A DNA stretch of 64,000 bases from Gemmatales bacterium (lineage in GTDB: Bacteria > Planctomycetota > Planctomycetia > Gemmatales > HRBIN36): assembly GCA_041640595.1 (NCBI GenBank), contig JBEPZY010000002.1, positions 114,984 to 178,983 on the forward strand, read 5' to 3'. Of this stretch, positions 5,624 through 60,672 are shown in pieces. Position 1 is the first letter of the stretch. The number at the start of each line of letters is the position of its first letter. The position numbers and the translations under genes were made by a program. The notes below the pieces were generated by a model that saw only the letters and a list, made by a program, of their open reading frames with translations, was not told the DNA's origin and did no database searches.

Positions 5624-5825
5624 GTGTTTCGGCGAGGAGCTGATATCGTTTCGACTAGGAGCTAATGTCGGGGTGATTTTTTTCCCAGGATATTATCGTT
5701 TTGCAGGTATGACGTGTGTTTCGGCGAGGAGCTGATATCGCGGCGATTTCCTTCTCGCAATCTAAACAAAACAGATGGGAAAGCTCGCGGTGTTTCGGTT
5801 ATAAGCTGACGTCGGGGGAAATTTG
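5624..5825. repeat. Degenerate tandem copies of the mpg 3' end
   Basis: GTGTTTCGG..AGCTGA.[A/G]TCG at 5624, 5716 and 5790; the 5790 copy spans the mpg stop codon. Confidence 0.6.
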
Positions 5826-6536
5826 CCGGCCGCGACGAGTGCTGCTGACATAAGGCGAGTCGGCCAGGAAGTAACGCAGCGGTAAGTCCCTGGCAGCGGT
5901 GACACCGATCCGCGGACTGGCACGAATCCGCGCTGCCGGGACAACTTCCCGTGCCTGGGCGAGCCAGAGCTGCTGGCCCCGGGTAACGTCCCAACCATCG
6001 AAGCGGCGATCGATCGCCAGAGCCTGGCAGAGTCGGCCCGGACCTCGAGCGAGTTCCCGCAGTTCCGTAACACCGCGATGCTGCTGCATGAGACCGATGC
6101 CGCAAATCGGCTCGATGGCACGGATGAGCACAGCACTGGGCACGCCTTCCGGCTCAGTGACCACGTTCAGGCAAAAGCGATTGTGGATCGTATAGACGTA
6201 GGCGTGTCCGGGTGGTCCGAACATGCTGGCATTGCGGCGAGTTCGACCACGATAGGCGTGATTAGCCGGGTCGTGCTCCGCCAGATAAGCCTCCACCTCG
6301 ACAATTTTGCCAGCCATTAAACCAGCTTCGGTGTCGCGGAGCAGCCATTGTCCCAGCAAGGCACGGGCTACTTCCTGTACTGGTCGGTCGTAAAAGGAGC
6401 GGGGCAAGGCAGGGAGTTGTCGCACGAATAGTTCCGTTGCCTCATCGCTGGCCGACACGCTGTTCGGCACGTGGACGGGGCGGAATTGCCGCGGAGCATC
6501 ATTATTCGATCGGGGAAAAGCAGGCTGTTCTTCCAT
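5799..6536 (-). CDS. mpg: DNA-3-methyladenine glycosylase (MPG/AAG family)
   Basis: GKIVEVEAY, MFGPPGHAYVY, AVLIRAIEP, GPGRLCQAL and SPRIGV motifs; start uncertain. Confidence 0.92.
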   Translation of the reverse strand: MEEQPAFPRSNNDAPRQFRPVHVPNSVSASDEATELFVRQLPALPRSFYDRPVQEVARALLGQWLLRDTEAGLMAGKIVEVEAYLAEHDPANHAYRGRTRRNASMFGPPGHAYVYTIHNRFCLNVVTEPEGVPSAVLIRAIEPICGIGLMQQHRGVTELRELARGPGRLCQALAIDRRFDGWDVTRGQQLWLAQAREVVPAARIRASPRIGVTAARDLPLRYFLADSPYVSSTRRGRQISPDVSL

Positions 6537-6781
6537 TTCCGATTCCCGAGCAGGCCGGCCCAGGGTTTTGCCAAGCCAGATCAGCCACTACCAACTTGTG
6601 CGTCTGGCTCGAAATCTCCCAGAGTGGCTCACAATGGTTTGCGACCACGCTGCCCTGGACCGTCAGCGAAATTCTGCTGGTTCGCGGTGCTTTTCTGATA
6701 TTCCGCTATCCTTATCATAGCTGGTAAGGCGAACGGCCTGGGTGGTGCGACCAACAGAAACGAAGCGGAGTGCAAACGCCA

Positions 6782-7576
6782 ATGATAACACGCTTGGCCA
6801 TCAACGGAGCCTGCGGGCGAATGGGATTGCGGCTAGTGCAATTGGCCCAGGAGGATGCGGAGCTGTCGGTGATAGCGGCGCTGGAACGTGCTCAGCATCC
6901 GCGTCTGGGGCAGGATATTGGCGAACTGGCCGGGCTGGGCCGACTGGGTGTGCCCCTGACGCATACCTTGCCGCTAAGCGAGCGGCCCGACGTCATTGTG
7001 GACTTTTCTTCGCCGGAAGGCACTATGCAGGTCTTGAAGCTGGCGGTGGAGCGAAAAATTCCGCTGGTGGTGGCAACCACCGGACATACAGCCGCTCAGC
7101 GCGACGAGATCGAAGCAGCGGCACATCATATCCCGCTTTTGGTTTCGCCCAACATGAGCCTGGCCATGAACGTCCTGATGGTGCTGCTCGAACAGGCTGC
7201 GAAACTTCTGCGAGGGAAGGATTTTGACGTGGAGATTATCGAGGCCCACCACCGCTTCAAAAAGGATGCTCCCAGTGGCACAGCCCTGGCCCTGGCCCGT
7301 ATCGTGCAACAGCAGATGGGGCAGCAATTAGTCCGGCACGGTCGGGAAGGAATGACCGGCGAACGGTCGGCTACCGAGATCGGAATCCACGCGGTGCGTG
7401 CGGGTGATCTGGTGGGAGAACATGTCATCCTCTTCGGCACGCTGGGCGAATCTTTGCAGCTCAGTCATCGGGCGCACACCCGCGACTGCTATGCCCGCGG
7501 CGCATTACTCGCCGCCAAGTTCCTCGCCCAGCAACCTCCCGGAAGGTACACCATGCGCGATGTGCTCGGTCTCTAA
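6782..7576 (+). CDS. dapB: 4-hydroxy-tetrahydrodipicolinate reductase
   Basis: GACGRMG Rossmann motif, VDFS, ATTG and EAHHRFKKDAPSGTA signature; start is ATG 6782 or GTG 6770. Confidence 0.96.
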   Translation: MITRLAINGACGRMGLRLVQLAQEDAELSVIAALERAQHPRLGQDIGELAGLGRLGVPLTHTLPLSERPDVIVDFSSPEGTMQVLKLAVERKIPLVVATTGHTAAQRDEIEAAAHHIPLLVSPNMSLAMNVLMVLLEQAAKLLRGKDFDVEIIEAHHRFKKDAPSGTALALARIVQQQMGQQLVRHGREGMTGERSATEIGIHAVRAGDLVGEHVILFGTLGESLQLSHRAHTRDCYARGALLAAKFLAQQPPGRYTMRDVLGL

Positions 7577-7630
7577 AAGAGCGGGAGTCCCAACGTTGGC
7601 AGTATTAGAAATCAAGTGAACGAAAATACA

Positions 7631-21157: not shown

Positions 21158-21186
21158 ACTTTATCCTGTGATTCGACCGCCACCGG

Positions 21187-21345
21187 ATACAAACGCACGT
21201 AGGCCCCTCCCAGTACACGAGCAACTGGTGTTTTTCCTGCGGTGGTATGCCAGATACAAACGCACGTAAGCGCCTCCAGTACGGCGTTCAAACGTTCTAC
21301 CCAGCAGTGCATGTCGAAAATACAAACGCACGTAGGCGCCACCAG
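21187..21345. repeat. Degenerate tandem repeat, period 66-67 bp, 3 copies
   Basis: ATACAAACGCACGTA at 21187, 21254 and 21320. Confidence 0.85.
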
Positions 21346-21426
21346 TAGCCCCGCTGCCTGTGCAAACTGCCCCAGTTGCCGCCTGGCTTAGACACACAGC
21401 GAGGTCCTTTCGGTAACGTTTTTACG

Positions 21427-21632
21427 ATCCGTTGTGCGTGTTCACTTTGCTGGACCACGGTGGACGAGAAATCCTTTGGCCAACGGTTCTGCCATCCGCT
21501 GTGCGTGTTCACTTCGCTGGATCACGCCGGACGAGAAGTCCTTTGGCCAACGATTTTGCCATCCGCTGTGCGTGTTCACTTTGCTGGACCACGCTGCACG
21601 AGAGGCCCTTTCAATAACGGCCTTACGATCCG
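21427..21632. repeat. Degenerate tandem repeat, period 67 bp, about 3 copies
   Basis: ATCCG[C/T]TGTGCGTGTTCACTT.GCTGGA at 21427, 21494 and 21561; partial copy at 21628. Confidence 0.9.
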
Positions 21633-21679: not shown

Positions 21680-22249
21680 GAACGGACGCCCGCCGCTCTT
21701 GGTCGGATGTGCATTTGTGCATCGCGAATGGCGCTTTTGCTCGCCGAACACACGTCGCGCAACCAGGAGCGGTGGGCGTAAGCCCACCGTGGTAAACGTT
21801 CACGATTGCACCGGAGTTAGAAATCCACGGCGGGCTGACGCCCGCCGCTCCTGGTCGGATCTGCGTTTGTGCATCGCAAAAATCGTTTTTCGCCGGCGGA
21901 CGTTCGCATTGCAGCACAAGAGCGGGGGGCGTAAGCCCCCCGTGGTATCGCTGCACGCGATGCAACGGCGTTCGGCCCACATACTGTCGACGGTCTTGCG
22001 AGCAATCGCGCTGGTGTCTGCGTAAACGTGTTTGTCGAACCACGGCGGGCTGGCGCCCGCTGCTCCTTGATTGGACGGTCGTTACTCGCCGGACGTTACT
22101 CGCTGTGCATTGTCCGCGCGGGGCAATGCAACCCACGGCGGGCTGACACCCGCCGCTCTTGAAAACATGCGTTTCCGCACCGCAAATGTCGTTATTTCTT
22201 CAGCGACCAACACCGTGCACCAAGAGCGGCTGGCGTAAGCCAGCCGTGG
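21680..22249. repeat. REP-like hairpin array, cluster 2 (about 7 copies)
   Basis: Hairpins at about 21685 (half), 21767, 21825, 21920, 22040, 22132 and 22224 in both orientations. Confidence 0.9.
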
Positions 22250-22518
22250 TACGGAGAGGCGAACGTGTGGGCTTACAGGCGTTCCAAGGTATCGGTGCAT
22301 CGTCGAGTGATCAGGTCCAGAGCGAGCCCGTAACGGTCGTGGAAAGTTGCTGGCGATCGGGAGGCCGTTTCCGTTACACAGGAGCGCAGTTTTTCCAACA
22401 GTATCACGTTCCACGGCGAAGATCGGAACACCGTATCTGTTACCCCGACCTGGAATGAGAACGCTCATCAAGCCGTCATACAACCGGATGGAAACGCCGT
22501 TTCGGTTACCTGTGAAAT

Positions 22519-22720
22519 CGCGCTCCCCTTACACGCAAGTCGGGCAGAGACGTCATCACGTTCACCTTTCCTCATCGGCGCATCCCCGTGTGGCCGCGCT
22601 CCCCGTACACGCAAGCCGGGCAGATGTTGAAGCGGAATGTGGTTTCCGTGAGGAAGCGGATATCATCTATGACGGCATCGAGCGGGCAGATGTTGAAGCG
22701 GAAGGCTGTTTCCGTTTCCC
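22519..22720. repeat. Degenerate tandem repeat upstream of the FGGY kinase (periods 76 and 66)
   Basis: CGCGCTCCCC.TACACGCAAG.CGGGCAGA at 22519 and 22595; CGGGCAGATGTTGAAGCGGAA at 22617 and 22683. Confidence 0.8.
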
Positions 22721-24137: not shown

Positions 24138-24605
24138 ATGAGTCCGGAAAAACGCTTGCAGGAACTGCATCTGACCCTGCCACCTGCGCCGAAACCCGTA
24201 GCGGTTTACAAGCCGGCCGTGCTTGTGGGCAATTTGCTGTATGTATCCGGGCACGGCCCCCTGACCCCGGAAGGCAAGACCGGCATCTGCGGGAAAGTCG
24301 GGGCCGATCTCAGTCTCGAACAGGGCTACCAGGCCGCCCGACAGGTGGGGCTGGCCATCCTGGCCACGGTGCGGAACACACTCGGTTCGCTGGACAAAGT
24401 CAAGCGGCTGGTCAAAACCCTCGGCATGGTCAACGCCGCTCCCGACTTCCGCGACCATCCGAAGGTGATCAACGGTTTCTCGGAATTGATGGCGGAGGTT
24501 TTCGGACAGGAAGCCGGGATCGGAGCACGCAGTGCCGTCGGCATGGCCTCTTTGCCGAACAACATCGCCGTCGAAATCGAATGCATCTTCGAGGTGCAAA
24601 CCTAG
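24138..24605 (+). CDS. RidA/YjgF family protein
   Basis: LYVSGHGP, GKVG, INGFSEL, ARSAVGMASLPNNIAVEIE; AGGAG RBS before ATG 24138. Confidence 0.92.
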   Translation: MSPEKRLQELHLTLPPAPKPVAVYKPAVLVGNLLYVSGHGPLTPEGKTGICGKVGADLSLEQGYQAARQVGLAILATVRNTLGSLDKVKRLVKTLGMVNAAPDFRDHPKVINGFSELMAEVFGQEAGIGARSAVGMASLPNNIAVEIECIFEVQT

Positions 24606-25105
24606 CGTCGAGGCTGGTATCGCGTAGATGCGAGATTCGCTGGCCGGCACATCGTGGCGACCGTCTCCGCCTACACCTCGTCATATCGTACACAGGCGAA
24701 ATTCGCCGGCCCGAAATGCAACGTGTCCTCGAGGCGCAAACTCCATGTCGAGGCTCGTATCCGTACACGCTAGATTCGCTGGCCCGAAGTCGAACGCACC
24801 TTCAAGGCGCAGACTCCATGTCCAGGCTCGTATGGGGTAGATGCGAGATTCGCTGGCCGGCACATCGTGGCGACCGTCTCCGCCTACACCTCGTCATATC
24901 GCACACAGGCGAAATTCGCCGGGCCGAAGTAGAACGCACTTTCGAGGCGCGAACTGCATCTCGAGGTTCGTATCCATACACTCCGGATTCGCCGGCCCGA
25001 AATGGAACGCGTCCTCGAGGCACAAGCTTCATGTCGAGGCTCGTATCCGTACACGCTAGATTCGCTGGGCCGAAATTGAAGGCACCTTCGAGGCGCGAAC
25101 TGCAT
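24573..25105 (+). repeat. Tandem array seeded by the RidA 3' end (73-bp unit plus a 67-bp inserted unit)
   Basis: GAA..GAA.GC..C[T/C]TCGAGGC motif starts at 24573, 24713, 24786, 24926, 24999 and 25072; the first copy encodes EIECIFEVQT-stop. Confidence 0.9.
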
Positions 25106-25256: not shown

Positions 25257-26286
25257 GAGCGGCTGGCGTGAGCCAGCCGTGGTACGGAGGCGACTGTGCG
25301 GTGCGAAACGTAATCAGTCCGCAAAAACCGATCGCCGTTGCAAGCGCGAATCGGAACCACGGCGGGCTGACGCCCGCCGCTCTTGGTCGGATGTGCGTTT
25401 GTGCATCGCAAAAATCGTTTTTCGCCGGCAGACACGCGCATTGCAGCACAAGAGCGGGGGGCGTAAGCCCCCCCGTGGGAAACGAAACGCCGTTGCAAAG
25501 CACCACCGCCCATTTGCGACGACTTGCGCGTGCACCCAAGAGCGGCTGGCGTGAGCCAGCCGTGGTACGGAGGCGACTGTGCGGTGCGAAACGTAATCAG
25601 TCCGCAAAAACCGATCGCCGTTGCAAGCGCGAATCCGAACCACGGCGGGCTGACGCCCGCCGCTCTTGGTCGGATGTGCGTTTGTGCATCGCAAAAATCG
25701 TTTTTCCGCCGGAAGACGTTCGCATTGCAGCACAAGAGCGGGGGGCGTAAGCCCCCCGTGGTTTTGGAGACACGCTCGCAGCGGCTGGATCCCAATTGTC
25801 GCGCAGAGGCGACCGGTCGGTGGTCTGTGCACGAACACCGCTGCAATTGCATTACCATACCACGGCGGGCTGACGTTCGCCGCTCTTGCTCGGATGCGCG
25901 GTCGTCGCCGAACAGTGCGGGATTTTCACCGCACAACGTTCGTATCACACACCACGGCGGGCTGACGCCCGCCGCTCTTGAAAACGTGCGTTTGTGCATT
26001 GCAAAAATCGTTTTTCGCCGAAAGACGTTCGCATTGCAGCACAAGAGCGGGGGGCGTAAGCCCCCCGTGGTTTTGGAAACACGCTCGCAGCGGCTAGATC
26101 GCAATTGTCGCGCAGAGGTGACCGGTCGGTGGTCTGTGCACGAACACCGCTGCAATTGCATTACCATACCACGGCGGGCTGTCGCCCGCCGCTCTTGGTC
26201 GGATGCGCGGTCGTCGCCGAACAGTGCGGGATTTTCACCGCACGACGTTCGTATCACACACCACGGCGGGCTGACGTTCGCCGCTC
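25257..26286. repeat. REP-like hairpin array, cluster 3 (11 copies)
   Basis: Hairpins at 25257, 25357, 25452, 25540, 25640, 25736, 25860, 25952, 26045, 26169 and 26261. Confidence 0.95.
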
Positions 26287-26478
26287 TTGTGGGCGGGCGT
26301 GTGTGCACTGAGAGTGGCGGTTTTTGTCGCCGGGAGCGGCTACGGTAGCAGTGTGTCCGCATGCGCGCGAAGATGCAGAATAGCGCGAAGGAGTCGTGCG
26401 GTCGGGGTAGCGGTGTGTCGGCATTGTGCTGTTGACGGAGGCGGTTATAGTGGCGGTCCTGGTCTTGCCCTGGAAGAT

Positions 26479-26730
26479 GTCGGCGAGGCAATCACACAGA
26501 GCGACATGCCGCGTCTCGGCGCCGCAATTGCAGGGAGCGCGACGCGGTGTTTCGGGAGTGCAATTGCAGGGAGCGGGACGCTCTTTGTCGGCGAGGCAAT
26601 CACACAGAGCGACATGCCGCGTCTCGGCGCCGCAATCGCACGGAGCGCGACGCGGTGGGTCGGCGCCGCAATCGCAGGGAGCATGACGCTCTTTGTCGGC
26701 AGTGCAATTGCAGGGAGCACGACGCCATGA
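26479..26730. repeat. 36-bp degenerate tandem repeat, 7 copies
   Basis: nTCGG..nGCAAT..CA..GAGC units at 26479, 26515, 26551, 26587, 26623, 26659 and 26695; units 1 and 4 are identical. Confidence 0.9.
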
Positions 26731-27035
26731 AAGGAGATGCCCTGAACCGTGCAGGCATGCGAGGTCAACTTACAGCTACTGGGGGCAAACACATGAGAAA
26801 TGCCCTGAACCATGCAGACCCTGGCCGTGCTTACGGGCAATCCACGCCGGTCAACGAGGTCACATCCTCGGGGATCAACCCGTACCGATGGCATAGGGAA
26901 AGCTCTGCACATGCCGCTCCGCAAGAATCGGTACCTGTGAAAGCGCACGGCGGAATCGAAAACAGGAGAAGGGAAAGCATTGCGCAAGGCGATCCGCGAG
27001 AATCGGCACCGGTGCCCGACTGCCTGCCGTGGCGA

Positions 27036-27983
27036 GTGTGCCACGCCGGGCTTTGGTCGGGCGGGCGACGCCATTGGCTGTCGGAGATACTGTTTGCGGT
27101 CAGCCTGGCTGTGATCGCAAGTGGCTGCGGTCAACGAGGAGCGGAGACACGTCACGATGCCCAGGCAAATCCGAACTCGCCGGAAGCGACGGCGACAAAC
27201 AGTGCTTCGGAGCGTTGGCGAACTCCCAGCGCAGCTTCGCCCGACGGTGGCCGGGATAATTCCACTTCTGACGACCAGTCCTGGAAACAAACACCGATGT
27301 ACGCTTTTCTGCACCAGCCGTTTGAGGAAGCGATTCAGTCTTCGCCACCGGTAGGAGCACGACGACCACCCGACGTTACCGTGACCGAGAAATCAGTGGG
27401 AAAGCTCTTCGAGACGGTGCGGCAACGCTGGCCGGAAATCGTGTTCGTCACGGCGACGGGTCAGCTGAAACGCCCGCTGGCCGAACTCGACACGGAACTG
27501 GGTGTGATCGAAATCGAGTTGTGGCCGGAAGTAGCACCAAACCATGTGCGGGCGTTTGTCGCGTTGGCGGAGTGCGGATACTACGACGGCTTGTTTTTCG
27601 AGTTGCGGGTGGGGAATCGCGGAGCGGCCGATGTACCGCGAGCGATCGGCGGCGGATCACCGGAGGCGAATGCTCTGGAAACGGCCAGCATCGGTTTCTG
27701 GCTGAAACCGGAAATCCTGCTTCCGGAAAAAGCAGCGGCGCGCGGAATCCGCCATCGGCCGGGCAGCGTGTTTTGCCACTGGCTGGGGTGTTTCTTTTAC
27801 ATCGGTTTGACGGAAGCGCCCATGTGGGATGGCGAATATGTCATTTTTGGGCAGGTAAGACAGGGACTGGAAACGGCCGAACGCATCTTCGACGCTCTGG
27901 GCGAAGATGCCCACCCGCCGCAGATTCGCCGGGTCCGCATCCGCTGGCAGGAGACTGGAAAAAGTTTGCAGCAGTTGCCATAA
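27036..27983 (+). CDS. Cyclophilin-type peptidyl-prolyl isomerase domain lipoprotein (degenerate active site)
   Basis: LDTELGVIEIELWPEVAPNHVRAF..GYYDG, FFYIGL, DGEYVIFGQVRQGLE; lipobox IASGC; start uncertain (ORF is open from 26547). Confidence 0.8.
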   Translation: MCHAGLWSGGRRHWLSEILFAVSLAVIASGCGQRGAETRHDAQANPNSPEATATNSASERWRTPSAASPDGGRDNSTSDDQSWKQTPMYAFLHQPFEEAIQSSPPVGARRPPDVTVTEKSVGKLFETVRQRWPEIVFVTATGQLKRPLAELDTELGVIEIELWPEVAPNHVRAFVALAECGYYDGLFFELRVGNRGAADVPRAIGGGSPEANALETASIGFWLKPEILLPEKAAARGIRHRPGSVFCHWLGCFFYIGLTEAPMWDGEYVIFGQVRQGLETAERIFDALGEDAHPPQIRRVRIRWQETGKSLQQLP

Positions 27984-42313: not shown

Positions 42314-42681
42314 CGCAACACTCCCAAATGGCGCGTCTTCTCGGCGTCTTGCTATAAAAATACGCAGGGCAGGCGGCACCGGCTGCGTAAGTGCAGGATT
42401 ACAATGCGGACAACCGAAAACGGAACTTTTTTGCGAGTCCCACCCCAGCGAAAATCAACAATACTTTGCAGGACAGCCATGGCAGCGACCGCAGGCGGCA
42501 CCGGTTTTTCGCTGCCCTATTTTGAACCGAAAAACGCACACATGCCGATGTGGTACGCCGCAGGCCTGGCACCTGTGCTCTGCAAGTCGGTCAGCGCCTA
42601 GCGGATCGGCTCTGGTGATGGCGACCCGCCGGGCAGCCGTGCCAGCTTAGCCTTTCGCACGCAGACACGGCAAGCTCGCCC

Positions 42682-42956
42682 ATTCTCACTCCTGGCTGAC
42701 GAAATCGCCATTCGCTTCGTGGGGCATTTGGGGTCGTCGACCGTGACCGCGCCTATTCTCGCTCCTAGCTGACGAAATCGCCACTCGCTTCGTGGATGGC
42801 CTTTGTCCCGGAGGCCGCTCATTCTCGCTGCCGGACTTCTGGGTCGGATGCTGTGGACTCGCGCCTCGCAAAGACCAACACCGCACGACCGAACCCGCCA
42901 CGAGGGCAGGCCGACCACGTGGATGCTGTGGACTCGCGCCTTGCAAAGACCAACAC
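42682..42956. repeat. Two adjacent degenerate tandem repeats (periods 73/66 and 75)
   Basis: ATTCTC.CTCCT.GCTGACGAAATCGCCA.TCGCTTCGTGG at 42682 and 42755 (partial at 42821); GGATGCTGTGGACTCGCGCCT.GCAAAGACCAACAC at 42846 and 42921. Confidence 0.88.
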
Positions 42957-45069: not shown

Positions 45070-46332
45070 GAGCGGCGGGCGTCAGCCCGCCGTGGCTCGG
45101 ATTCGCACTTGCAACGGCGACCCGCTTTTGCGCACTGATTACGTTTCGCACCGCACAGTCGCTTCCCGTGCCACGGCTGGCTCACGCCAGCCGCTCCTGC
45201 TTGCGCGACGTGTGTTCGGCGAGCAAAAGCGATATTTGCGATGCACAAACGAACGTGCATAAGAGCGGCGGGCGTCAGCCCGCCGTGGGTCGAATTCGCG
45301 CTTGCAATCGCGACCCGCTTTTGCGCACTGATTACGTTTCGCACCGCACAGTCGCTTCCCGTACCACGGCTGGCTCACGCCAGCCGCTCTTGGTGCACGA
45401 GGTGTGTTCGGTGTAAAGGGCGCGATCTCTGGTGTGGACGCGCACGCCCACAAGAGCGGCGGGCGTCAGCCCGCCGTGGGTCGGATTCGCGCTTGCGACG
45501 GCGACCCGCTTTTGCGCACTGATTACGTTTCGCCCCGCACATTCGCTTCCCGCACCACGGCTGGCTCACGCCAGCCGCTCTTGGTGCGCGACGTGTGTTC
45601 CGCGAGCAAAAGCGACATTTGCGATGGACGAACGAACGTGCACAAGAGCGGCGGGCGTCAGCCCGCCGTGGCTCGGATTCGCCCTTGCAAGGGCGACCCG
45701 CTTTTGCGCACTGATTACGTTTCGCCCCGCACATTCGTTTCCCGCGCCACGGCTGGCTCACGCCAGCCGCTCTTGGTGCACGACGTGCATTCGCTGTAAA
45801 GGGGGCGATCTCTGCTGCGGACGCGCACGCCCACAAGAGCGGCGGGCGTCAGCCCGCCGTGGCTCGGATTCGCACTTGCAACGGCGACCCGCTTTTGCGC
45901 ACTGATTACGTTTCGCACCGCACAGTCGCTTCCTGCGCCACGGCTGGCCCACGCCAGCCGCTCTCGGTGCACGACGTGTATTCGGTGTAAAGGGCGCGAT
46001 CTCTGCTGCAGACGCGCACGCCCACAAGAGCGGCGGGCGTCAGCCCGCCGTGGGTCGGTAACGCATCTGCAATGGCGCCCACCTTCTCCCGCTAAACACA
46101 TCTGCCCAGCACGATCCGCTCCCGCACCACGGTGGGCTTACGGCGACCGCTCCTGGTTGCACGTGCGCTTATTGTTGCAGAACTGCGTTTGGCCGTGAGC
46201 GAGTCGGTTCCCGCACCACGGGGGGCTTACGCCCCCCGCTCTTGGTCGCCAGCGCGGACGCCATTGCAGGTGTACGTTTCGTAGCCGCGAGAATGCTAAC
46301 CTTCGCACGGGGGGGGCTTACGCCTCCCGCTC
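45070..46332. repeat. REP-like hairpin array, cluster 6 (14 copies; about 192-bp doublet unit repeated 5 times)
   Basis: Alternating inverted hairpins at 45070/45171, 45263/45364, 45454/45555, 45646/45747, 45837/45938, then 46028, 46127, 46216 and about 46306. Confidence 0.96.
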
Positions 46333-50421: not shown

Positions 50422-50535
50422 TCGCCGCAACGTCAGCGCTCATATTCGCCGTCGCAGGCGTGACCCTCCTTTTTATGCCCGGCCCCTGCCGCTGGGTCGC
50501 CGCAACGTCAACGCTCATATTCGCCGTCGCTGGTG
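50422..50535. repeat. Degenerate direct repeat, period 75
   Basis: TCGCCGCAACGTCA.CGCTCATATTCGCCGTCGC at 50422 and 50497. Confidence 0.85.
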
Positions 50536-53187: not shown

Positions 53188-53214
53188 TGGCGGTTGGCGT
53201 GTCGTTGATGCCCG

Positions 53215-54431: not shown

Positions 54432-54590
54432 GAAACAACTGACCGCCCCGACGGATCGCGTTTTCGGCGACCGGACCGGCGTGCGTGGGGAACAAGTGAA
54501 CGGCGGAAACAACCGACCGCCCCGACGGACCGTGTTTTCGCTGACCAGACCGGCTCGCGCTGAGAACAAGCGAGCGGCGGAAACAACATC
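54432..54590. repeat. Degenerate tandem repeat, period 74
   Basis: GAAACAAC at 54432, 54506 and 54580; GACCGCCCCGACGGA is shared by the first two units. Confidence 0.88.
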
Positions 54591-54947: not shown

Positions 54948-56768
54948 GTGCGATTGGTGGTGCAAAAATTCGGTGGTACCAGTGTTGCCACGGCCGAGCG
55001 CATCATGGCGGCAGCGCGGCGAGCGATTCGCGCCCGCCAACAGGGAAATCAGGTGATTGTCGTGGTCAGTGCCCGCGGCGATACCACCGACGAACTCATT
55101 GCCCTGGCCCGCGAAATCACCGAAAATCCCCCCAGTCGGGAACTGGATATGCTGTTATCCACCGGCGAACAAATCTCCATCGCCTTGATGGCTATGGCAA
55201 TCCAGGCCCTGGGCTACCCAGCCATCAGTTTTACCGGAGCGCAGATCGGCATCGTAACCGACAGTTTTCACACCAAGGCACGCATCAAGAACATTTCCAC
55301 GCAGCGAATTTTGCAGGCACTGGCCGATGGGCAGATTGTCATCGTGGCCGGGTTCCAGGGCGTGGACGAGCATTACAACATCACCACCCTGGGTCGCGGT
55401 GGGTCGGACACGACTGCCGTGGCGCTGGCGGCAGTGATGAAACACGACCCTTCCAGTCCGTTCCAGGAGGTGGATTGCGAAATTTATACCGACGTAGATG
55501 GCGTGTACACCACCGATCCGCGCATTGTGCCGGAAGCCCAGAAACTCCCCGCCATCAGTTACGACGAAATGCTGGAGCTGGCGAGTCTCGGGGCGGGTGT
55601 GATGCATTCGCGGAGCATCGAATTTGCCAAAAAATTCAACGTTCCGGTCATGGTGCGCAGCTCGTTCAGCGATGCGATCGGCACCTGGATCGTTCCCGAG
55701 ACCGAATGGATGCGGCAGGTGCCGGTCTGTGGTGCTGCCCTGGCCAAAGAGGAAGCGCGGATCAGCTTGATTGGTGTGCCCGACCGACCGGGAGTCAGCC
55801 ATCGCATCTTTTCAGCGATTGCCGAGCACAACATCGCCGTGGACATGATCGGACAGAATCTCGGCGAGGCTGGCCGGGCCGAGATCGGTTTCACCGTTTT
55901 ACGCAACGAGCTACCGGCCACGCTGACCGCACTGAGGCAACTGGCCAGCGAACTGGGCGCAGAAGTGCGCTGCGAAGACAATGTCAGTAAAGTCTCCGTT
56001 GTCGGGGCGGGCATGCGCACCCATACCGGTGTGGCGGAACGCTTCTTCCGCGCCCTTGCCGAAGCCGACGTCCTGGTCAAATCGGTCACCACGGGCGACA
56101 TCAAGATTTCCGCACTGGTGGATAAGCCCGATGGGCCGCGGGCACTGCGAGCGTTGCATCAGGCGTTTGCCCTCGATCAGCCGCGACTCGATTATTCCGC
56201 ACCTTCGCCCGACACCAGCGCGGGGCAATTGCCCGACCTTCGGGAACTCCTGGCCAGCGATCTGCCCGTGACCGGGCGTTTGGAAGCTATGGAGGATATC
56301 GTGGTCAGCGACCTCAGCCTGGATGAGACGCAAGGGCGGGTTACGGTGCGGAATGTTCCGGCCCAGACGCGAGTTCTCTCCGATTTGTTCTCGGCGATTG
56401 CTCAGGCCGGCATCAACGTGGATTTGATCGTCCACAGCACCAAAAATGGCACCCAGCTGGCGGAATTATCGTTCAGCGTGCCGCGCGCTGACGTGCCCCG
56501 TGCCGCCGAGATAGCCCGCAGCCTGGCCAAACAGCGCTGGCCCGATGCTCAGGTACTGGCTGAGCCGAACATCGCTGTCGTCAGTGTCACCGGAGTGGGC
56601 GTGCGAACCCATACGGGCGTGGCTCGACGCATGTTCGGCGCTCTGGCTCAGCAGGGCATCAACATCGCCATGATCAGCACCAGCGAAATTCGCGTGGAAG
56701 TGGTAGTGGATGCCGAGCGTGGCCAGGAAGCTCTGGCCGCTCTCCGCCACGCCTTCCGCCCGGTGTAA
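54948..56768 (+). CDS. lysC: Aspartate kinase with four ACT domains
   Basis: VQKFGGTSV, TTLGRGGSDTTA, YTDVDGVYTTDPR and duplicated ACT pairs; GGAGG RBS, GTG start. Confidence 0.95.
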   Translation: MRLVVQKFGGTSVATAERIMAAARRAIRARQQGNQVIVVVSARGDTTDELIALAREITENPPSRELDMLLSTGEQISIALMAMAIQALGYPAISFTGAQIGIVTDSFHTKARIKNISTQRILQALADGQIVIVAGFQGVDEHYNITTLGRGGSDTTAVALAAVMKHDPSSPFQEVDCEIYTDVDGVYTTDPRIVPEAQKLPAISYDEMLELASLGAGVMHSRSIEFAKKFNVPVMVRSSFSDAIGTWIVPETEWMRQVPVCGAALAKEEARISLIGVPDRPGVSHRIFSAIAEHNIAVDMIGQNLGEAGRAEIGFTVLRNELPATLTALRQLASELGAEVRCEDNVSKVSVVGAGMRTHTGVAERFFRALAEADVLVKSVTTGDIKISALVDKPDGPRALRALHQAFALDQPRLDYSAPSPDTSAGQLPDLRELLASDLPVTGRLEAMEDIVVSDLSLDETQGRVTVRNVPAQTRVLSDLFSAIAQAGINVDLIVHSTKNGTQLAELSFSVPRADVPRAAEIARSLAKQRWPDAQVLAEPNIAVVSVTGVGVRTHTGVARRMFGALAQQGINIAMISTSEIRVEVVVDAERGQEALAALRHAFRPV

Positions 56769-57406
56769 CCGCTCAACCATACCGGCGCTCGGAACGCTGA
56801 CTACTCGGGGCTTGTCGACCATGTCGGCTGCGTAACTTCTCAAGCATACTGCCACGCCGAACCGTACCGACGGGAGCTTCCCTCACCGGCTGCACCGATT
56901 GGCAAACTCTCCATCCCGCCTTCCGCCCGGCGTAACCGCTAGCCCATACCGCCACGCGGAAGTGATCAGTTGCTGTTGCAGCCTTTATTACGATAGCCTA
57001 ACCGCCCAAGTGCACTGCCACGCGGAACCGTACTGACGGCGGCTTGCTTCACCGGCTGCACCGATTGGCAAACTCTCCATCCCGCCTTCCGCCCGGCATA
57101 ACCGCTCAACCATACCGCCACGCGGAACCGTACTGACGGGAGCTTCCTTCACCGGCTGCACCGATTGGCAAACTCTCCGCCACACCTTCCGCCCGGCGTA
57201 ACCGCTAGCCCATACTGCCACGCCGAACCGTACCGACGGGAGCTTCCCTCACCGGCTGCACCGATTGGCAAACTCTCCGCCACACCTTCCGCCCGGCGTA
57301 ACCGCTCAACCATACCGCCGCGCGGAACCGTACTGACGGCGGCTTGCTTCACCGGCTGCACCGATTGGCAAACTCTCCGCCACACCTTCCGCCCGGCGTA
57401 ACCGCT
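56740..57406 (+). repeat. Tandem array seeded by the lysC 3' end (100-bp unit plus 66-67-bp inserts)
   Basis: CCTTCCGCCCGG at 56752 (inside lysC), 56919, 57085, 57185, 57285 and 57385. Confidence 0.95.
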
Positions 57407-57833
57407 GAAGCTGCCGTTACACGCATTGCATCGCTGTTCGGCCCACCACCCGTGCCAGCACATTGCACCAGCATTGCGACAGAGCCCTCAAAGGCTGAAC
57501 CTGTGTCGAACGCGGCTGACCACCCGTGCCACTACACTACCCCAACCCCGCAACGCCCGCCGGTACGCCGCAATAAGCTCCTACAGTCGTACCGGCGGTT
57601 ACGCCAACGCGGAAGAATTCTGGCTGGCAGCAGGCGCAACCGAAGCAGAACAAGAACAGGGTCCAGGCATTTCTCGCCCTCAACGCGCACCGGCGAGGAC
57701 ACGAGAGCAACGCGGTACACTTCTGCTGCCGCTTTGCCCGGTTACCTGGTTGGGCTCGAAGATGGAAACGTCCGGGACTTATCAGAACCGATACCTGACA
57801 GAGGTGCAGCGCTGGGCACGGTGAAGGGTTCGG

Positions 57834-58850
57834 CTACTTTGCAAAAAGTTTTCGCAGCTCTTCCGGGGTGAAGTTCAAGTTGCATGTCGGCCCGGTGTCG
57901 CGGAGGATTTTCTCGGCAATCAGGCGATTGGTAGGAGCGAGCACGCTGAAATGGTCTGCCCCGGGTACCGGCAGGAACCGCACATTCGGATTGGTGCACG
58001 ACCTGGCCATGTTCTGCAAGCTTTGAATGTTGGAGTTGACGGTTCCCTCGAAGACGAACGTGGGGGATTTGATCGCATGCAGCCATCGCCCGGGAGAGCG
58101 CAGTTCGATTTCCCGAGGGTTCGACAGATCGAAGGGGAGAAATTCGCGTCCATAGCCGCGAACATCGTCCGCGGGGCCGAACGAGAAAACAGCCCGGAAA
58201 CGATCCGAGCATTCCGCCACCAGCAGAGCGAGAGTGCCCCCCGTGCTGTGACCGCCGAGGTAAATGCGATTGGGGTCCACGTAGGGCTGTTGGGCGAGAA
58301 AATCCGCTGCCGCCAGAACATCGTCCACTTCGCCCAAAAAGCCTTCTTTGAATCCTGGATTAGTATTGCCTCCGCGCAGGGAAGGAAACATCATCACGAT
58401 CCCGGCCTGGCGGTAGGCGCTGGCAGTTTGATCGTTATTGGCCGGTGCTGGACTCCAAACATCGCCGATGGTGTTGCAGTCGCCCCCAGTTATCCAGATG
58501 ATAGCCGGACGTTTCCTGCCGTCTTTGGGATCGGGAGTAAGGTAGGCCGCCAGCTTGCCCACAGGTGCCGGATACCAAACAACCTGAAAAATATTCGGAG
58601 GTGGTGGCGGAACAGGTTCGTCGGCAGTCTCACGTCGCACCAGCCTGGTCCGAAAGCCCTTTCGCGCCTCCGCCAGCGAACCGGCAGCACTTCCCGGCTG
58701 AGCGACACTCGCTTTAGGGAACACCGGTTTGCTCACCGAGGGCAGCGGGTTGCTCGGGGGCCGCGGAGTTGCTGCTGGCGACCGTCTTGCCTCACGCTGG
58801 CAACCACTCACGACCACCACAGCTAACAGCAGACAAATGAGTTGCCTCAT
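57834..58850 (-). CDS. Alpha/beta-hydrolase (S9 peptidase-like) lipoprotein
   Basis: Lipobox VSGC, GHSTGG nucleophile elbow, VDPNRIYL, ADHF; start re-called to ATG 58850. Confidence 0.88.
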   Translation of the reverse strand: MRQLICLLLAVVVVSGCQREARRSPAATPRPPSNPLPSVSKPVFPKASVAQPGSAAGSLAEARKGFRTRLVRRETADEPVPPPPPNIFQVVWYPAPVGKLAAYLTPDPKDGRKRPAIIWITGGDCNTIGDVWSPAPANNDQTASAYRQAGIVMMFPSLRGGNTNPGFKEGFLGEVDDVLAAADFLAQQPYVDPNRIYLGGHSTGGTLALLVAECSDRFRAVFSFGPADDVRGYGREFLPFDLSNPREIELRSPGRWLHAIKSPTFVFEGTVNSNIQSLQNMARSCTNPNVRFLPVPGADHFSVLAPTNRLIAEKILRDTGPTCNLNFTPEELRKLFAK

Positions 58851-59013
58851 GGAAAAGCCTCCTCTTTCAACCTTCCCAGCCGGGCAAGCACACCAACCCG
58901 CCGGCATGGCGATTTTTCAGTGTACCGCCCGCATTGATTCGGATAGGGAAAAATCGTCCTCTGTCCACTGCCCCGTTGTTACGGCAGCCTGCACCTGGGG
59001 GAAACTTGCGGCC

Positions 59014-59197
59014 ACGATTCCCGCTTCTCGTTCGCTGGTGATGATTCGTTTAAGCCGAGCCTGCTCGGAAGGTCTGAGGTACCGTGGACGATTCCCGCTT
59101 CTCGTTCGCTGGTGATGATTCGTTTAAGCCGAGCCTGCTCGGAAGGTCTGAGGTACCGTGGACGATTCCCGCTTCTCGTTCGCTGGTGATGATTCGT
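59014..59197. repeat. Exact tandem duplication, period 74, about 2.5 copies
   Basis: ACGATTCCCGCTTCTCGTTCGCTGGTGATGATTCGTT at 59014, 59088 and 59162. Confidence 0.95.
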
Positions 59198-59344
59198 TGC
59201 TTATCCGTGGCCGGCCGCGATTTGCCCAATGTGATTGGCCAGCTGTGATTCGCAGCCTGTCATTCGCAACTTGTCAATCGTCGCTAGCTGTTCACCTGCT
59301 GTGATTGGCCGCATGTCATTCGCTGCTCGTCCTTCACCTGTCGC

Positions 59345-59503
59345 ACACCATCCATAACACACAGCCCTATAGTCAGCCGCCGCCAAACGTTGCACAACCG
59401 GTCCCCGTCGTACACCATCCGCAACATACAGCACTTCATCGCCGACCTCATAAAGGCGGGGCCGGGCCGCCCCCGTCGTACACCATCCGCAACACACAGC
59501 ACC
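59345..59503. repeat. Degenerate tandem repeat, period 67-68
   Basis: ACACCATCC..AACA.ACAGC at 59345, 59412 and 59480. Confidence 0.8.
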
Positions 59504-59509
59504 CAGGCC

Positions 59510-60120
59510 TGCCGCCCGCCGCTCTTGTGCATGTGCGTTTCTGCATCGCGGATGGCGCTTTATGCCGCGAACACACGCCGTGCAACCAGGAGCAGCTGGC
59601 GTAACCCAGCCGTGGTTCCCGAAACGCGCTTGCAGCGGCAACACCGCAATTGTCGCACACGGGCGATCGGCCGGTGGTCTGTGCACGAACACCTTTGGAA
59701 TTCCGTTACCACACCCACGGGGGGCTGACGTCCGCCGCTCTTGGGAACGTGCGTTTCTGCATCGCGAAAATCGTTTTTTCGCCGGCAAACGTTCGCTCTG
59801 CAACAAGAGCGGGGGGCGTAAGCCCCCCGTGGTTCGGGAGCCGATTGTGCAGTGGCAAACGTAACCACTCCACGAAGATCACTCGCCGTTGCAGATGCGT
59901 TTTTCGATACCACGGCGGGCTGACGCCCGCCGCTCTTGGTTCTGTGTCGCATAGCCGCTGCACAGTGCGTGGTTTCCGCGGCACAGCGCTGGGTTCACCG
60001 TACCACGGCGGGCTGACGCCCGCCGCTCTTGATTCGGCGGTCGTCCTTCACCAGACATCGGTCGGTGTGCGCTGCAGGCGCGGCCCATCGCCGACCACGG
60101 CGGGCTGATGAAGGCCGGTC
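59510..60120. repeat. REP-like hairpin array, cluster 8 (about 7 copies)
   Basis: Copies at about 59512 (half), 59590, 59715, 59807, 59910, 60003 and 60095. Confidence 0.9.
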
Positions 60121-60270
60121 TGGACTCGGCAGTCGTTCTTCGTCAAAGGGGAGTTGCGGTCAGAGGAACGGTTGCGTCGGTGTACGCGGGCACGGTTTGC
60201 GACGAGTTGCGAGCAAGTTACAGGTGGTTGGAAAAAGTTGTGCGTCGGTGGACGCTCACGGCTGGCGGGG

Positions 60271-60672
60271 CGGCGATGGTAATTTTCGACCAGGCATGTT
60301 GTCGTGGTTGCGCTGGTCAGGGAGGCGACCACGGGGCCTTCAACGGCGATTGTAATTTTCCACGGGGGCACGTTGTCGTCACAGTGGGATGCTGGAAGGC
60401 AATCAGCGGCCTCCCAGAAGCGGCGGTCATTTTTGGGCGGGGCATGTTGGCGTGGTACTGGTGGTTCGGGAGCGCGAACCATCTGTCAGCACGATGTCAC
60501 CAAAACCGCGCATGTTGCCGTGGTAGTGGTGGTTCGGGGGCACGCCAGAGGCTTCCCAGCGGCGATGGTCATTTTCCTCGGGAGCATGTTCTCGTCGCCG
60601 TGGGGATCCGGAAGACAATGAGCGGCCTACCAGAAGCGGCGGTCATTTTCGGCGGGGGCGTGTTGCCGGGGT
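60271..60672. repeat. Degenerate tandem repeat (periods 68-74, about 6 copies) ending at the Hsp70-like gene 5' region
   Basis: Recurrent CGGCG(AT)GGT[A/C]ATTTT..GCATGTT at 60271, 60344, 60421, about 60495, 60560 and 60636. Confidence 0.75.

What the first reader, a model, noticed from the sequence alone, without database searches (positions are those of the whole stretch)
5624..60672. Sequence-unrelated intergenic tandem repeats share quantised periods (about 66-68, 73-76 and 100 bp) that match the REP spacer lengths: a possible length-measuring DNA amplification system
Seen in sequence: more than ten separate arrays with no evident sequence similarity to each other have strikingly similar periods. 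These are 21187 (67, 66), 21427 (67, 67, 67), 22519 (76, 66), 24573 (73 and 73+67), 32752 (73, 70), 42682 (73, 66), 42846 (75), 50422 (75), 54432 (74, 74), 56752 (100 and 100+66/67), 57446/57520 (74), 59014 (74), 59345 (67, 68), 60271 (68-74) and 5716-5790 (74; the outer copy at 5624 is 92 bp away, an exception). The spacers between REP hairpins measure 61-75 and 98 bp (for example 74, 69, 61, 74, 70, 98, 66, 67, 98, 66 in cluster 3; 75 and 66 in cluster 6). Many arrays directly flank a REP cluster, giving gene - unique repeats - REP mosaic - unique repeats - gene. Inference: polymerase slippage should give a broad spread of periods, so a dedicated mechanism that copies fixed-length segments may be at work (for example a REP-associated HUH/RAYT nuclease with rolling-circle copying, or an RNA-templated process). 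No such enzyme is encoded in this window.
Basis: partly seen in the sequence, partly recalled or inferred. Interest (0 to 1): 0.85.

Follow-up and report, generated by a model that had tools for sequence, protein, structure and literature searches.

The report
Misplaced CRISPR spacers seed quantised repeats
The equal-length repeats scattered between genes are insertion scars with exactly the geometry of this hot-spring bacterium's two CRISPR arrays, most likely left where its spacer-inserting enzymes pasted spacers into ordinary DNA about 240 times, with some scars probably growing later into tandem repeats; the REP hairpin clusters are a separate, ordinary kind of repeat.

Summary
With the true CRISPR arrays masked, short-range direct repeats pile up at lags 65-68 and 72-76 bp: 40.9 HSPs per lag against 2.8 at other lags, and 0 in a shuffled genome.

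The units are mostly not true tandem repeats. They are X-S-X: a locally unique block X is duplicated around an unrelated insert S. Median X is 30 nt at lag ~66 and 36.5 nt at lag ~74; inserts are ~36-37 nt. These are the repeat, spacer and unit lengths of the genome's two CRISPR arrays (30-nt repeat, type I-B; 37-nt repeat beside an RT-Cas1-Cas2 module).

I catalogued 239 loci, 205 of them intergenic. Ten have paralogs with one X and no insert. One window insert matches a canonical spacer. Another copies a chromosomal gene site flanked by the system's CCD PAM.

Best reading: off-target ("neo-CRISPR") Cas1-Cas2 spacer integration, followed by amplification at 37 loci and repeated integration at 17.

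The REP link is not supported. REP spacing (88-100 bp) comes from conserved linker families, no RAYT gene is detectable, and orphans are not closer to REPs than chance. "100 bp" is not a genome-wide class.

Earlier agents of this scan reached the same reading on other windows of this genome.

The parts
21187..21348 (.). Class A (30-nt ruler) mini-array. X at 21187-21216, 21254-21282 and 21320-21348. Two different 37-nt inserts at 21217-21253 and 21283-21319.
   Evidence: The second insert matches gene C3:406663-406698 at 34/36, and the source site has a 5' CCG. In that orientation X begins GTACT, as the canonical repeat does.
21401..21632 (.). Class A array with the whole unit repeated. Four 31-nt X copies (21401, 21468, 21535, 21602) and three similar 36-nt inserts; period 67.
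   Evidence: TRF 21404-21611: period 67, 3.1 copies, 84% matches; D15.
22519..22715 (.). Two overlapping units. X30 at 22519/22595 (lag 76, insert 46, an atypical partition) and X33 at 22617/22683 (lag 66).
24573..25105 (.). Composite degenerate array. Period 73 (5.8 copies, 66% matches) with a 213-bp super-unit (= 73+73+67, 2.2 copies, 84%).
   Evidence: (D10, D11).
42677..42795 (.). Unit at lag 73 with an atypically long duplicated block (41-46 nt) and a short insert (27-32 nt).
42846..42956 (.). Class B single X-S-X. X of 36 nt at 42846 and 42921 (97% identical); insert of 39 nt.
50422..50533 (.). Class B single X-S-X. X of 37 nt at 50422-50458 and 50497-50533; insert of 38 nt at 50459-50496.
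   Evidence: Spanned by single contigs of two independent metagenome runs, X2 and X3.
54432..54587 (.). Period-74 tandem array, 2.1 copies, 84% matches. No clear terminal extra X (remainder 8).
   Evidence: Spanned by a 6000-nt contig of run X2 with 0 differences.
56748..57413 (.). 100-bp tandem array (3.9 copies, 91%) made of a ~35-nt block plus a ~65-nt block, with two 66-bp steps at its left end. A secondary amplification, not a third quantised class.
   Evidence: (D2). Genome-wide there are only 3 arrays of period 100.
59014..59198 (.). Youngest class B array: X(37)-S(37)-X-S-X, all copies 100% identical. X at 59014, 59088 and 59162; S at 59051 and 59125.
   Evidence: D20; length 185 = 2x74 + 37.
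59337..59502 (.). Class A mini-array. Three ~32-nt X copies (about 59337, 59403, 59471) at lags 67/68 with two different inserts. The insert at 59435-59470 matches a canonical CRISPR-2 spacer.
   Evidence: 30/31 identity to the spacer at C8:12371-12406, in the same orientation.
60271..60672 (.). Degenerate array of ~68-74-bp units with a 216-bp super-repeat (75% identical). The clearest step is X29 at 60442 (lag 68).
   Evidence: (D16).
5624..5814 (.). Weak unit. An exact 25-nt block at 5624 and 5716 (lag 92 = about 70 + an internal 22-bp duplication) and a poor third copy at 5790 (lag 74).
   Evidence: (row 5626-5670, period 22).
45070..46332 (.). REP cluster, a separate phenomenon. Hairpins alternate in orientation at about 100 and 91-93 bp, giving a 191-bp unit in 5.2 copies. 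Other REP clusters: 1-700, 21767-22250, 25257-26286, 33031-33711, 59714-60028.
   Evidence: (D1, D3, D4).

Best explanation
The quantised repeats are scars of short insertions, each flanked by a duplication of its target, and were most likely made by off-target spacer integration by the genome's two CRISPR adaptation integrases.

SHOWN BY THE SEQUENCE
- At about 240 mostly intergenic sites, a unique local block X is present twice or more around an unrelated insert S of ~36-37 bp. X is ~30 bp in one class and ~37 bp in the other.
- Paralogous copies of ten such sites carry a single X and no S.
- Unit, block and insert lengths equal those of the two canonical arrays: a 30-nt repeat with 66-67-bp units beside type I-B Cas1-Cas2-Cas4, and a 37-nt repeat with 73-75-bp units beside Cas2-RT-Cas1.

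INFERRED
- Each Cas1-Cas2 complex made two staggered strand transfers one repeat-length apart in ordinary DNA. Gap repair then duplicated the target, exactly as at a real repeat.
- Later slippage or unequal recombination between the X copies would have amplified whole X+S units into tandem arrays (37 loci).
- Further integrations at the new 'repeat' would have added different inserts (17 loci).
- Selection would have removed events inside genes, which would explain the intergenic bias.

The REP clusters are unrelated composite elements.
For: (1) Two lag classes only. There are 368 HSPs in the 9 lags 65-68 and 72-76 (40.9 per lag), against 209 over 74 other lags (2.8 per lag). A shuffled genome gives 0.

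(2) Geometry equals the canonical arrays.
- Mean unit: 66.48 (orphans) vs 66.37 (canonical); 73.82 vs 73.81.
- Median X: 30 nt (IQR 28-32, n=106) and 36.5 nt (IQR 33.75-38, n=112).
- Median insert: 36.5 and 37 nt, against canonical spacer modes of 36 and 37.

(3) X blocks are unique local sequence, not a repeat family and not the canonical repeats.

(4) Filled versus empty paralogs at 10 loci. Class A has extra DNA of 67, 67, 67 and 134 bp with a single shared block of 30-35 bp. In class B, four loci have 73-75 bp extra, one has 152 and one has 66; four of the six shared blocks are 38-46 bp. Cleanest case: C3:417881-418074 (X39-S36-X39) versus C8:38243-38360 (one X), with flanks ~97% identical.

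(5) Insert origin. Sixteen of 218 inserts have non-local matches. One window insert matches a canonical CRISPR-2 spacer (30/31). Three class A inserts copy chromosomal sites: a C3 gene, a C1 gene and the 23S rRNA gene.

(6) PAM. Thirty-three CRISPR-2 spacer-to-C15 matches give 5'-CCD (C at -3 in 28/33, C at -2 in 30/33). The three chromosomal source sites all have CC at -3/-2 on one strand: one clear CCG, one CCG-compatible within a 1-4-nt boundary ambiguity, and one CCC.

(7) Both adaptation modules are complete and lie beside very large arrays of 247 and 344 repeats. The leader-proximal CRISPR-2 spacers match co-assembled contig C15, many at 100%, which points to recent activity.

(8) 205 of 239 loci are intergenic in a genome that is ~79% coding.

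(9) The arrays are not assembly artefacts. Contigs of independent runs X2 and X3 span the 50422 unit, and a contig of X2 spans the 54432 array.

(10) Relatives have almost no such repeats. The four orphan-like units found lie at lags 71-72 in G017, whose own array has a unit mode of 72, and at 74-75 in G004.

Literature seen as passages: off-target integration spawning 'neo-CRISPR' arrays in E. coli is attributed to Nivala et al. 2018 in 10.1101/148544 and PMC6698737. In vitro, Cas1-Cas2 without the host factor HU integrates promiscuously (PMC13769266).
Against: - No enzyme assay was possible. The identity of the integrase rests on matching geometry, the PAM and one shared spacer.
- No target-site motif was found. 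EM information content was 6.5 against 6.0-6.5 for random sites, and X is not repeat-like overall.
- Only 16 of 218 inserts have any traceable match. About half of those are paralogous copies of the same array rather than sources.
- Three window inserts have no exact match in the viral collection.
- The remainder test on whole-unit arrays is mixed. Class B has 10 of 24 remainders in 31-41 (about 3.6 expected). Class A has only 4 of 12 in 26-36, and 4 arrays have near-integer copy numbers.
- Some units have an atypical partition: X 41-46/S 27-32 at 42677, and X30/S46 at 22519.
- None of the 10 empty-site cases lies in the window.
- The roughly tenfold excess over the sampled relatives, and the strong contig-to-contig variation (0 to 5.8 loci per 10 kb of intergenic DNA, co-varying with REP density), are unexplained.
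Confidence: 0.9

Rival explanations
1. One reading: a dedicated system, tied to REP elements (RAYT/HUH nuclease with rolling-circle copying), amplifies fixed-length DNA segments.
For: The periods are quantised. REP clusters and orphan loci are enriched on the same contigs. Some arrays sit next to REP clusters in the window.
Against: - No PF01797 (Y1/RAYT) match in the genome.
- REP linkers are conserved families: 47 families for 437 linkers.
- No local proximity enrichment: 19.5% vs 15.9 +/- 2.5%.
- 179 of 239 loci are a single duplication around a foreign insert, not an amplified segment.
- Empty paralogs show insertion plus target duplication.
Confidence: 0.03
2. Ordinary replication slippage or unequal crossing-over makes the tandem duplications, with lengths biased by some structural feature such as nucleoid-protein phasing.
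For: 37 loci are whole-unit tandem arrays. Several have near-integer copy numbers.
Against: - Slippage cannot place an unrelated ~36-bp insert between two copies of a 30- or 37-bp block.
- It cannot copy that insert from a PAM-flanked gene site or share it with a CRISPR spacer.
- It does not explain why the two classes match the two CRISPR arrays to within 0.1 bp in mean unit length.
- Relatives show almost no such repeats.
Confidence: 0.02
3. The units are real, functional or horizontally acquired orphan mini-CRISPR arrays, each with its own repeat family.
For: 17 loci have three or more X copies with different inserts. Orphan arrays are known in the literature (PMC8616872, passage).
Against: - Nearly every X is unique in the genome, so about 240 different repeat families would be needed.
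- Most loci have only two copies.
- Empty paralogs show that X is pre-existing local DNA.
Confidence: 0.03
4. Another mobile element or integrase (casposase-like or transposon-like) inserts ~36-bp DNA with 30/37-bp target duplications.
For: An insertion with target duplication is formally transposition-like.
Against: - Only two Cas1 homologues exist, and both sit in CRISPR modules.
- The inserts are unrelated to one another, so there is no element family.
- The two duplication lengths equal the two repeat lengths.
Confidence: 0.02

Closest known systems
Neo-CRISPR loci from non-canonical (off-target) Cas1-Cas2 spacer integration (Nivala, Shipman and Church 2018, Nat Microbiol 3:310). The paper is not held. 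It is known here only through passages citing it in 10.1101/148544 and PMC6698737.
   Same: A spacer-sized insert flanked by a duplication of non-CRISPR target DNA one repeat-length long. The repeats are locus-specific, and further spacers can be added at the new repeat.
   Different: - The events here are fixed in a wild genome, not made by over-expression in E. coli.
- There are about 240 loci.
- They come from two different modules at once (type I-B, and an RT-associated Cas1 with a 37-nt repeat).
- The citing preprint says natural occurrence was only circumstantial, in two other species.
In vitro off-target integration by Cas1-Cas2 (Pyrococcus furiosus, PMC6698737; Thermotoga profunda type III-A without HU, PMC13769266). 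Passages read.
   Same: The integrase alone can insert spacers at non-CRISPR sites. Fidelity depends on repeat and leader features and on host architectural proteins.
   Different: Those are plasmid assays. P. furiosus off-target sites share sequence features with repeats, whereas no shared motif could be detected here. Whether a host-factor defect explains the excess in this genome is untested.
Canonical CRISPR arrays
   Same: The same unit, repeat and spacer lengths. One insert is shared with a canonical spacer, and the source sites bear the PAM.
   Different: There is no shared repeat sequence, no leader and no adjacent cas genes. Most loci have only two 'repeats'.
REP/BIME/REPIN clusters (the name and the RAYT association are recalled, not taken from any call)
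   Same: The window's REP clusters are palindromic ~29-nt hairpins in alternating orientation with conserved linkers.
   Different: The quantised orphan units contain no REP: 4 of 143 and 4 of 225 HSPs are REP. No RAYT gene is found.

Membership tests
Off-target Cas1-Cas2 integration scars (neo-CRISPR loci) | Target-site duplication equal to the repeat length of a resident CRISPR system | tested here: met
   Median duplicated block is 30 nt at lags 65-68 (repeat 30 nt) and 36.5 nt at lags 72-76 (repeat 37 nt).
Off-target Cas1-Cas2 integration scars (neo-CRISPR loci) | Insert of spacer length, unrelated to the target | tested here: met
   Median inserts are 36.5 and 37 nt, against canonical spacer modes of 36 and 37. 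202 of 218 inserts have no other match in the genome.
Off-target Cas1-Cas2 integration scars (neo-CRISPR loci) | The pre-integration (empty) site has one copy of the block and no insert | tested here: met
   Ten loci have empty paralogs, for example C3:417881-418074 vs C8:38243-38360. None is in the window.
Off-target Cas1-Cas2 integration scars (neo-CRISPR loci) | Inserts come from the same prespacer pool as canonical spacers (PAM-flanked protospacers) | tested here: inconclusive
   One insert matches a canonical spacer. Three chromosomal sources have CC at -3/-2: one clear CCG, one CCG-compatible, one CCC. The numbers are small, and class B has no informative case.
Off-target Cas1-Cas2 integration scars (neo-CRISPR loci) | Complete adaptation module(s) present | tested here: met
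   Cas1b, Cas2 and Cas4 on C8; Cas2, RT and Cas1 on C1.
Off-target Cas1-Cas2 integration scars (neo-CRISPR loci) | Integration catalysed by Cas1-Cas2 | not testable with these tools
   Needs biochemistry or genetics.
Canonical CRISPR array | One conserved repeat sequence shared by all units, with a leader and usually cas genes nearby | tested here: not met
   X blocks are unique per locus and not similar to the canonical repeats.
REP/REPIN-RAYT system | REP hairpin within the repeated unit, and a RAYT (Y1 transposase) gene | tested here: not met
   Only 8 of 368 band HSPs are REP. There is no PF01797 match in the 95.5%-complete genome.
Slippage-born tandem repeats (VNTR-like) | Head-to-tail copies of one segment with no foreign insert and a broad spread of periods | tested here: not met
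   179 of 239 loci are X-S-X with an unrelated insert. The periods are restricted to two narrow bands.

The most novel reading that the evidence does not exclude
CRISPR adaptation is a major shaper of this genome's non-coding DNA and a cradle of new arrays. Off-target integration by two integrases continually seeds new repeats. Seventeen of them have already captured further, different spacers, which makes them CRISPR arrays being born in the wild. Some of these may be transcribed and processed into guide RNAs used by the resident type I-B and type III effectors. The RT-associated module may be writing fragments of the cell's own RNAs into the chromosome.
Probability: 0.2. Interest if true: 0.85.

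Novelty: new member of a known kind. Interest (0 to 1): 0.7.

Why it matters
Off-target spacer integration is known mainly from E. coli that over-produces Cas1-Cas2 and from test-tube assays. A wild genome with about 240 fixed events from two different adaptation modules offers several things:
- **Site choice.** It is a natural record of where type I-B and RT-associated integrases go when they miss. Each scar reports the enzyme's ruler (30 or 37 bp), and some report the prespacer source.
- **Cost of immunity.** It shows that CRISPR adaptation can be mutagenic at genome scale.
- **Origin of repeats.** It shows that adaptation can create sequence-unrelated tandem repeats of fixed period, a class of repeat that would otherwise look mysterious.
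- **Birth of arrays.** It makes the de novo birth of CRISPR arrays directly testable in one organism.

It also warns annotators that many "CRISPR-like" or "tandem repeat" calls in such genomes are integration scars.

Tried and rejected
- **Target-site motif.** EM over orientation and a +/-2-nt shift gave an information content of 6.51 (class A) and 6.46 (class B), against 5.96 and 6.53 for random sites. No motif is claimed.
- **Similarity of X to canonical repeats.** Class A vs R2 gave 12.6 identities against 11.7 at random, partly driven by 3 degenerate canonical copies. Class B vs R1 gave 14.25 against 14.12.
- **Orthologous empty sites.** Window 57800-59400 has no DNA match in 3 same-genus and 9 same-family genomes.
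- **Sampling relatives.** Searches returned almost nothing because I guessed the contig numbering of G002 wrongly. Only 133 kb of the same-genus genome was scanned.
- **Population test.** The first lay showed contigs spanning some units, but its joints table was dominated by REP-cluster variation. Strain-level empty sites therefore remain untested.
- **Viral origin of inserts.** Exact full-length searches of three window inserts in viral contigs found nothing. The test needs a perfect 37-38-nt match and so has low sensitivity.
- **Contig C15.** Nine ORFs gave no PHROG match, so its nature is unknown.
- **Remainder test on whole-unit arrays.** The result was mixed.
- **Mis-binning** as a cause of contigs without orphans. 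GC is 0.55-0.59 throughout, so there is no support for it.
- **Nivala et al. 2018** could not be read.
- Structure prediction, complex prediction and the protein-homology searches were not needed.

Full report

- In the window, TRF finds arrays of period 67 (21404-21611), 73 (24692-25105, with a 213-bp super-unit), 74 (54432-54587 and 59014-59198) and 100 (57017-57406).
- Stacking the sequence at the claimed periods and an ungapped lag scan confirm most of the other claims: 21187, 22519/22617, 42677, 42846, 50422, 59403 and 60442.
- Three claims are weak: 32752, 57446/57520 and the 5716-5790 step.
- The 92-bp 'exception' at 5624 contains an internal 22-bp duplication.
- The window lies at C2:114984-178983 of a 4.45-Mb, 42-contig assembly. 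Genome-wide, TRF periods peak sharply at 65-67 (47 rows) and 72-76 (84 rows), against 8 rows for periods 50-64.

**THE KEY LEAD.** Listing the arrays showed that the genome holds two large true CRISPR arrays.

| Array | Repeat | Copies and place | Unit lengths (count) |
|---|---|---|---|
| CRISPR-1 | 37 nt | 247 on C1 | 74 (99), 73 (81), 75 (38), 72 (12), 76 (11) |
| CRISPR-2 | 30 nt | 317 on C8 and 27 on C10 | 66 (165), 67 (108-109), 65 (36), 68 (26) |

These are exactly the two 'quantised' classes. With the canonical repeats masked, the peaks remain. Exact 12-mer lag events number 34, 81, 59, 34 at lags 65-68 and 40, 62, 65, 56, 23 at lags 72-76, over a background of about 10. An HSP scan gives 1159 hits in the real genome and 0 in a block-shuffled one. 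That is 40.9 HSPs per lag in the nine band lags against 2.8 per lag elsewhere.

**ANATOMY.**
- Most units are not tandem repeats of a whole segment. They are X-S-X.
- At lags 65-68 the duplicated block has mode 30 and median 30 nt. At lags 72-76 it has mode 36-38 and median 36.5 nt. The implied inserts have medians of 36.5 and 37 nt.
- Mean unit lengths are 66.48 against 66.37 (orphan vs canonical) and 73.82 against 73.81.
- The X blocks are unique local sequence in 134 of 143 and 192 of 225 HSPs. None clusters with the canonical repeats.
- I catalogued 239 loci: 101 class A, 130 class B and 8 with both.
- 205 of them are in predicted intergenic DNA, although about 79% of the genome is coding by my rough gene model.
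- By architecture, 179 are a single X-S-X, 17 have three or more X copies with different inserts, 37 have the whole unit repeated, and 6 are other.
- X-copy identity ranges from 100% (25 of 218 units) to below 90% (69 of 218), so the events span a range of ages.

Window examples:
- 59014-59198 is X37-S37-X-S-X, with all copies identical.
- 21187-21348 has three 29-30-nt X copies and two different 37-nt inserts.
- 50422-50533 is X37-S38-X37.

**INSERTION PLUS TARGET DUPLICATION IS SHOWN DIRECTLY.** Ten loci have paralogs elsewhere in the genome that align to left flank + X and to X + right flank, with the two alignments overlapping by about |X|. That means one X and no insert.
- Class A: extra DNA of 67, 67, 67 and 134 bp; shared block 30-35 bp.
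- Class B: extra DNA of 73, 74, 75, 75, 152 and 66 bp; shared blocks of 38-46 bp in four loci, with outliers at 20 and 55 bp.
- The cleanest case is C3:417881-418074 (X39-S36-X39) versus C8:38243-38360 (single X), with flanks about 97% identical.
- None of the ten lies in the window.

**WHERE THE INSERTS COME FROM.** Sixteen of 218 inserts have significant matches outside their own locus.
- About half are paralogous copies of the same array.
- The window insert at 59435-59470 matches a spacer of the canonical CRISPR-2 array (C8:12371-12406, 30/31) in the same orientation.
- The window insert at 21283-21319 copies a site in a gene on C3 (34/36).
- Another insert copies a C1 gene (100% over 33-38 nt).
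- Another copies the 23S rRNA gene.
- Thirty-three CRISPR-2 spacer matches, mostly leader-proximal, hit the co-assembled 9.6-kb contig C15. They define a 5'-CCD PAM, with C at -3 in 28/33 and C at -2 in 30/33.
- The three chromosomal source sites each have CC at -3/-2 on one strand: a clear CCG, a CCG within a 1-4-nt boundary ambiguity, and a CCC.
- For the window's 21187 array, the PAM-defined orientation makes the neo-repeat start GTACT, as the canonical repeat does. This is a single case.

**THE ENZYMES.**
- Beside CRISPR-2 lie Cas2, Cas1b (458 aa, with an unassigned ~155-aa N-terminal part), Cas4, Cas3, Cas5 and Cas7, followed by a Cmr (type III-B) module.
- Beside CRISPR-1 lie Cas2, a group-II-intron-like reverse transcriptase (550 aa) and Cas1.
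- There are no other Cas1 homologues and no Y1/RAYT transposase.

**MECHANISM.**
- Inferred: each integrase occasionally makes its two staggered strand transfers, one repeat-length apart, in ordinary DNA. Gap filling then duplicates the target around the spacer.
- Inferred: slippage or unequal recombination between the close X copies then expands some units into tandem arrays.
- Inferred: renewed integration at the neo-repeat adds different inserts.
- The insertion and duplication geometry is shown by sequence. The identity of the enzyme and the amplification step are inferred.
- The prediction that whole-unit arrays end in an extra X is only partly met. Class B has 10 of 24 remainders in 31-41. 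Class A has 4 of 12 in 26-36, with 4 arrays near integer copy number. Decay of the terminal copy may blur this.

**THE REP PART OF THE CLAIM FAILS.**
- About 912 REP hairpins (824 intergenic) occur at start-to-start spacings of 88-94 bp (same orientation, and B-to-A) and about 100 or 120 bp (A-to-B).
- The 437 linkers between them fall into 47 families. The top three hold 308, and 21 are singletons. The spacing is therefore inherited sequence of composite elements.
- 186 of 202 HSPs at lags 88-94 are REP, but only 8 of 368 in the two orphan bands are.
- Orphan loci lie within 300 bp of a REP in 19.5% of cases, against 15.9 +/- 2.5% for random intergenic positions.
- REP and orphan densities do co-vary between contigs: C2 has 20.2 REPs and 4.0 orphans per 10 kb of intergenic DNA, and C6 has 1.4 and 0. 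This is unexplained.
- A period of 100 bp is not a class: 3 arrays genome-wide. The window's 100-bp array is a ~35+65-nt unit with two 66-bp steps at one end.

**COMPARISON WITH OTHER GENOMES AND SAMPLES.**
- A window protein is closest (76-77% identity) to hot-spring MAGs labelled Gemmatales, phylum Planctomycetota.
- Twenty runs from 15 studies, mostly hot-spring metagenomes, hold part of the window.
- Contigs of two independent runs (X2, X3) span the 50422 unit, and a contig of X2 spans the 54432 array. The arrays are therefore not artefacts of this assembly.
- No relative is close enough for orthologous empty-site alignment.

Lag scans of sampled DNA from relatives:

| Genome | Kinship | DNA scanned | Result |
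|---|---|---|---|
| G004 | same family | 376 kb | 2 HSPs, at lags 74 and 75 (one with a 38-nt block) |
| G002 | same genus | 133 kb | only its canonical 37-nt-repeat array, plus one HSP at lag 81 in a short-period repeat stretch |
| G006 | same family | 379 kb | none |
| G017 | same order | 400 kb | canonical 36-nt-repeat array (unit mode 72); two orphan-like units at lags 72 (X39) and 71 (X29) |

The process exists elsewhere, but it is roughly ten times more frequent here (about 5.4 loci per 100 kb). The samples are small.

**LITERATURE.**
- Passages in 10.1101/148544 and PMC6698737 attribute 'neo-CRISPR' arrays from off-target integration in E. coli to Nivala et al. 2018. They say that natural evidence was circumstantial. 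The paper itself is not held.
- PMC6698737 (passages) reports off-target integration in vitro at sites resembling repeats.
- PMC13769266 (abstract and passages) reports promiscuous integration by a type III-A Cas1-Cas2 unless HU is present.
- My two searches listed no report of a wild genome with hundreds of such scars. That is the limit of what I can say about print.
- Earlier agents of this scan reached the same reading on other windows of this genome. I formed mine, before that look-up, and those notes are not independent evidence.

**VERDICT.** This is a natural, large-scale instance of a known process. It is notable for its scale, for involving two adaptation modules (one RT-associated), and for generating fixed-period tandem repeats.

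Noticed in passing
G000 contig C15 (9585 bp, locus L099); spacers at C8:17493-21050: 33 CRISPR-2 spacer matches, mostly leader-proximal and many at 100% identity, hit this small co-assembled contig with a strong strand bias and a 5'-CCD PAM. It is probably a plasmid or virus under active, possibly primed, attack. Its GC is 0.50. Nine ORFs have no PHROG match.
   Followed up: partly
G000 C3:328836-328903: A solitary canonical unit (two 30-nt CRISPR-2 repeats and one spacer) lies far from the main array. Its spacer also matches contig C15 (31/34).
   Followed up: no
G000 contigs C1-C12: REP density and orphan-scar density co-vary strongly between contigs: C2, C3 and C4 are high, while C1, C6 and C7 are low. 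C6 has 0 scars in 256 kb. Locally the two are not associated. GC gives no sign of mis-binning, and the cause is unknown.
   Followed up: partly
G000 C8:22441-23817 (L003:1441-2817, minus strand): The type I-B Cas1 is 458 aa. The Cas1 domain covers residues 157-412, and the ~155-aa N-terminal part has no Pfam or NCBIfam match.
   Followed up: no
G000 C5:166219-169683 (L127:1720-5184): The 23S rRNA gene matches the full Rfam model (2925 positions) but spans 3465 nt, so it carries about 540 nt of extra sequence. One off-target insert (C3:484615-484648) is a copy of positions ~413-446 of this gene.
   Followed up: no
window 26478-26725: A 36-bp tandem repeat (5.8 copies, with a 108-bp super-unit) lies at the start of, or upstream of, the ORF 26547-27983. 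It is unrelated to the 66/74-bp classes.
   Followed up: no
G000 C1:296.7k and 329k; C8:38.1-39.9k; C3:417.9-419.4k; C2:80.2-80.5k: A multi-copy region of a few hundred bp to about 2 kb carries several scars. Its paralogs differ in which scars are filled, so it is a good place to order integration events in time.
   Followed up: partly
G000 C4:156688-157672 and C4:319300-320101; G017 sample 226-229k and 359-361k: 72-bp (24-aa) leucine-rich-repeat-like coding repeats add to the lag-72 peak. They must be excluded when counting scars.
   Followed up: partly
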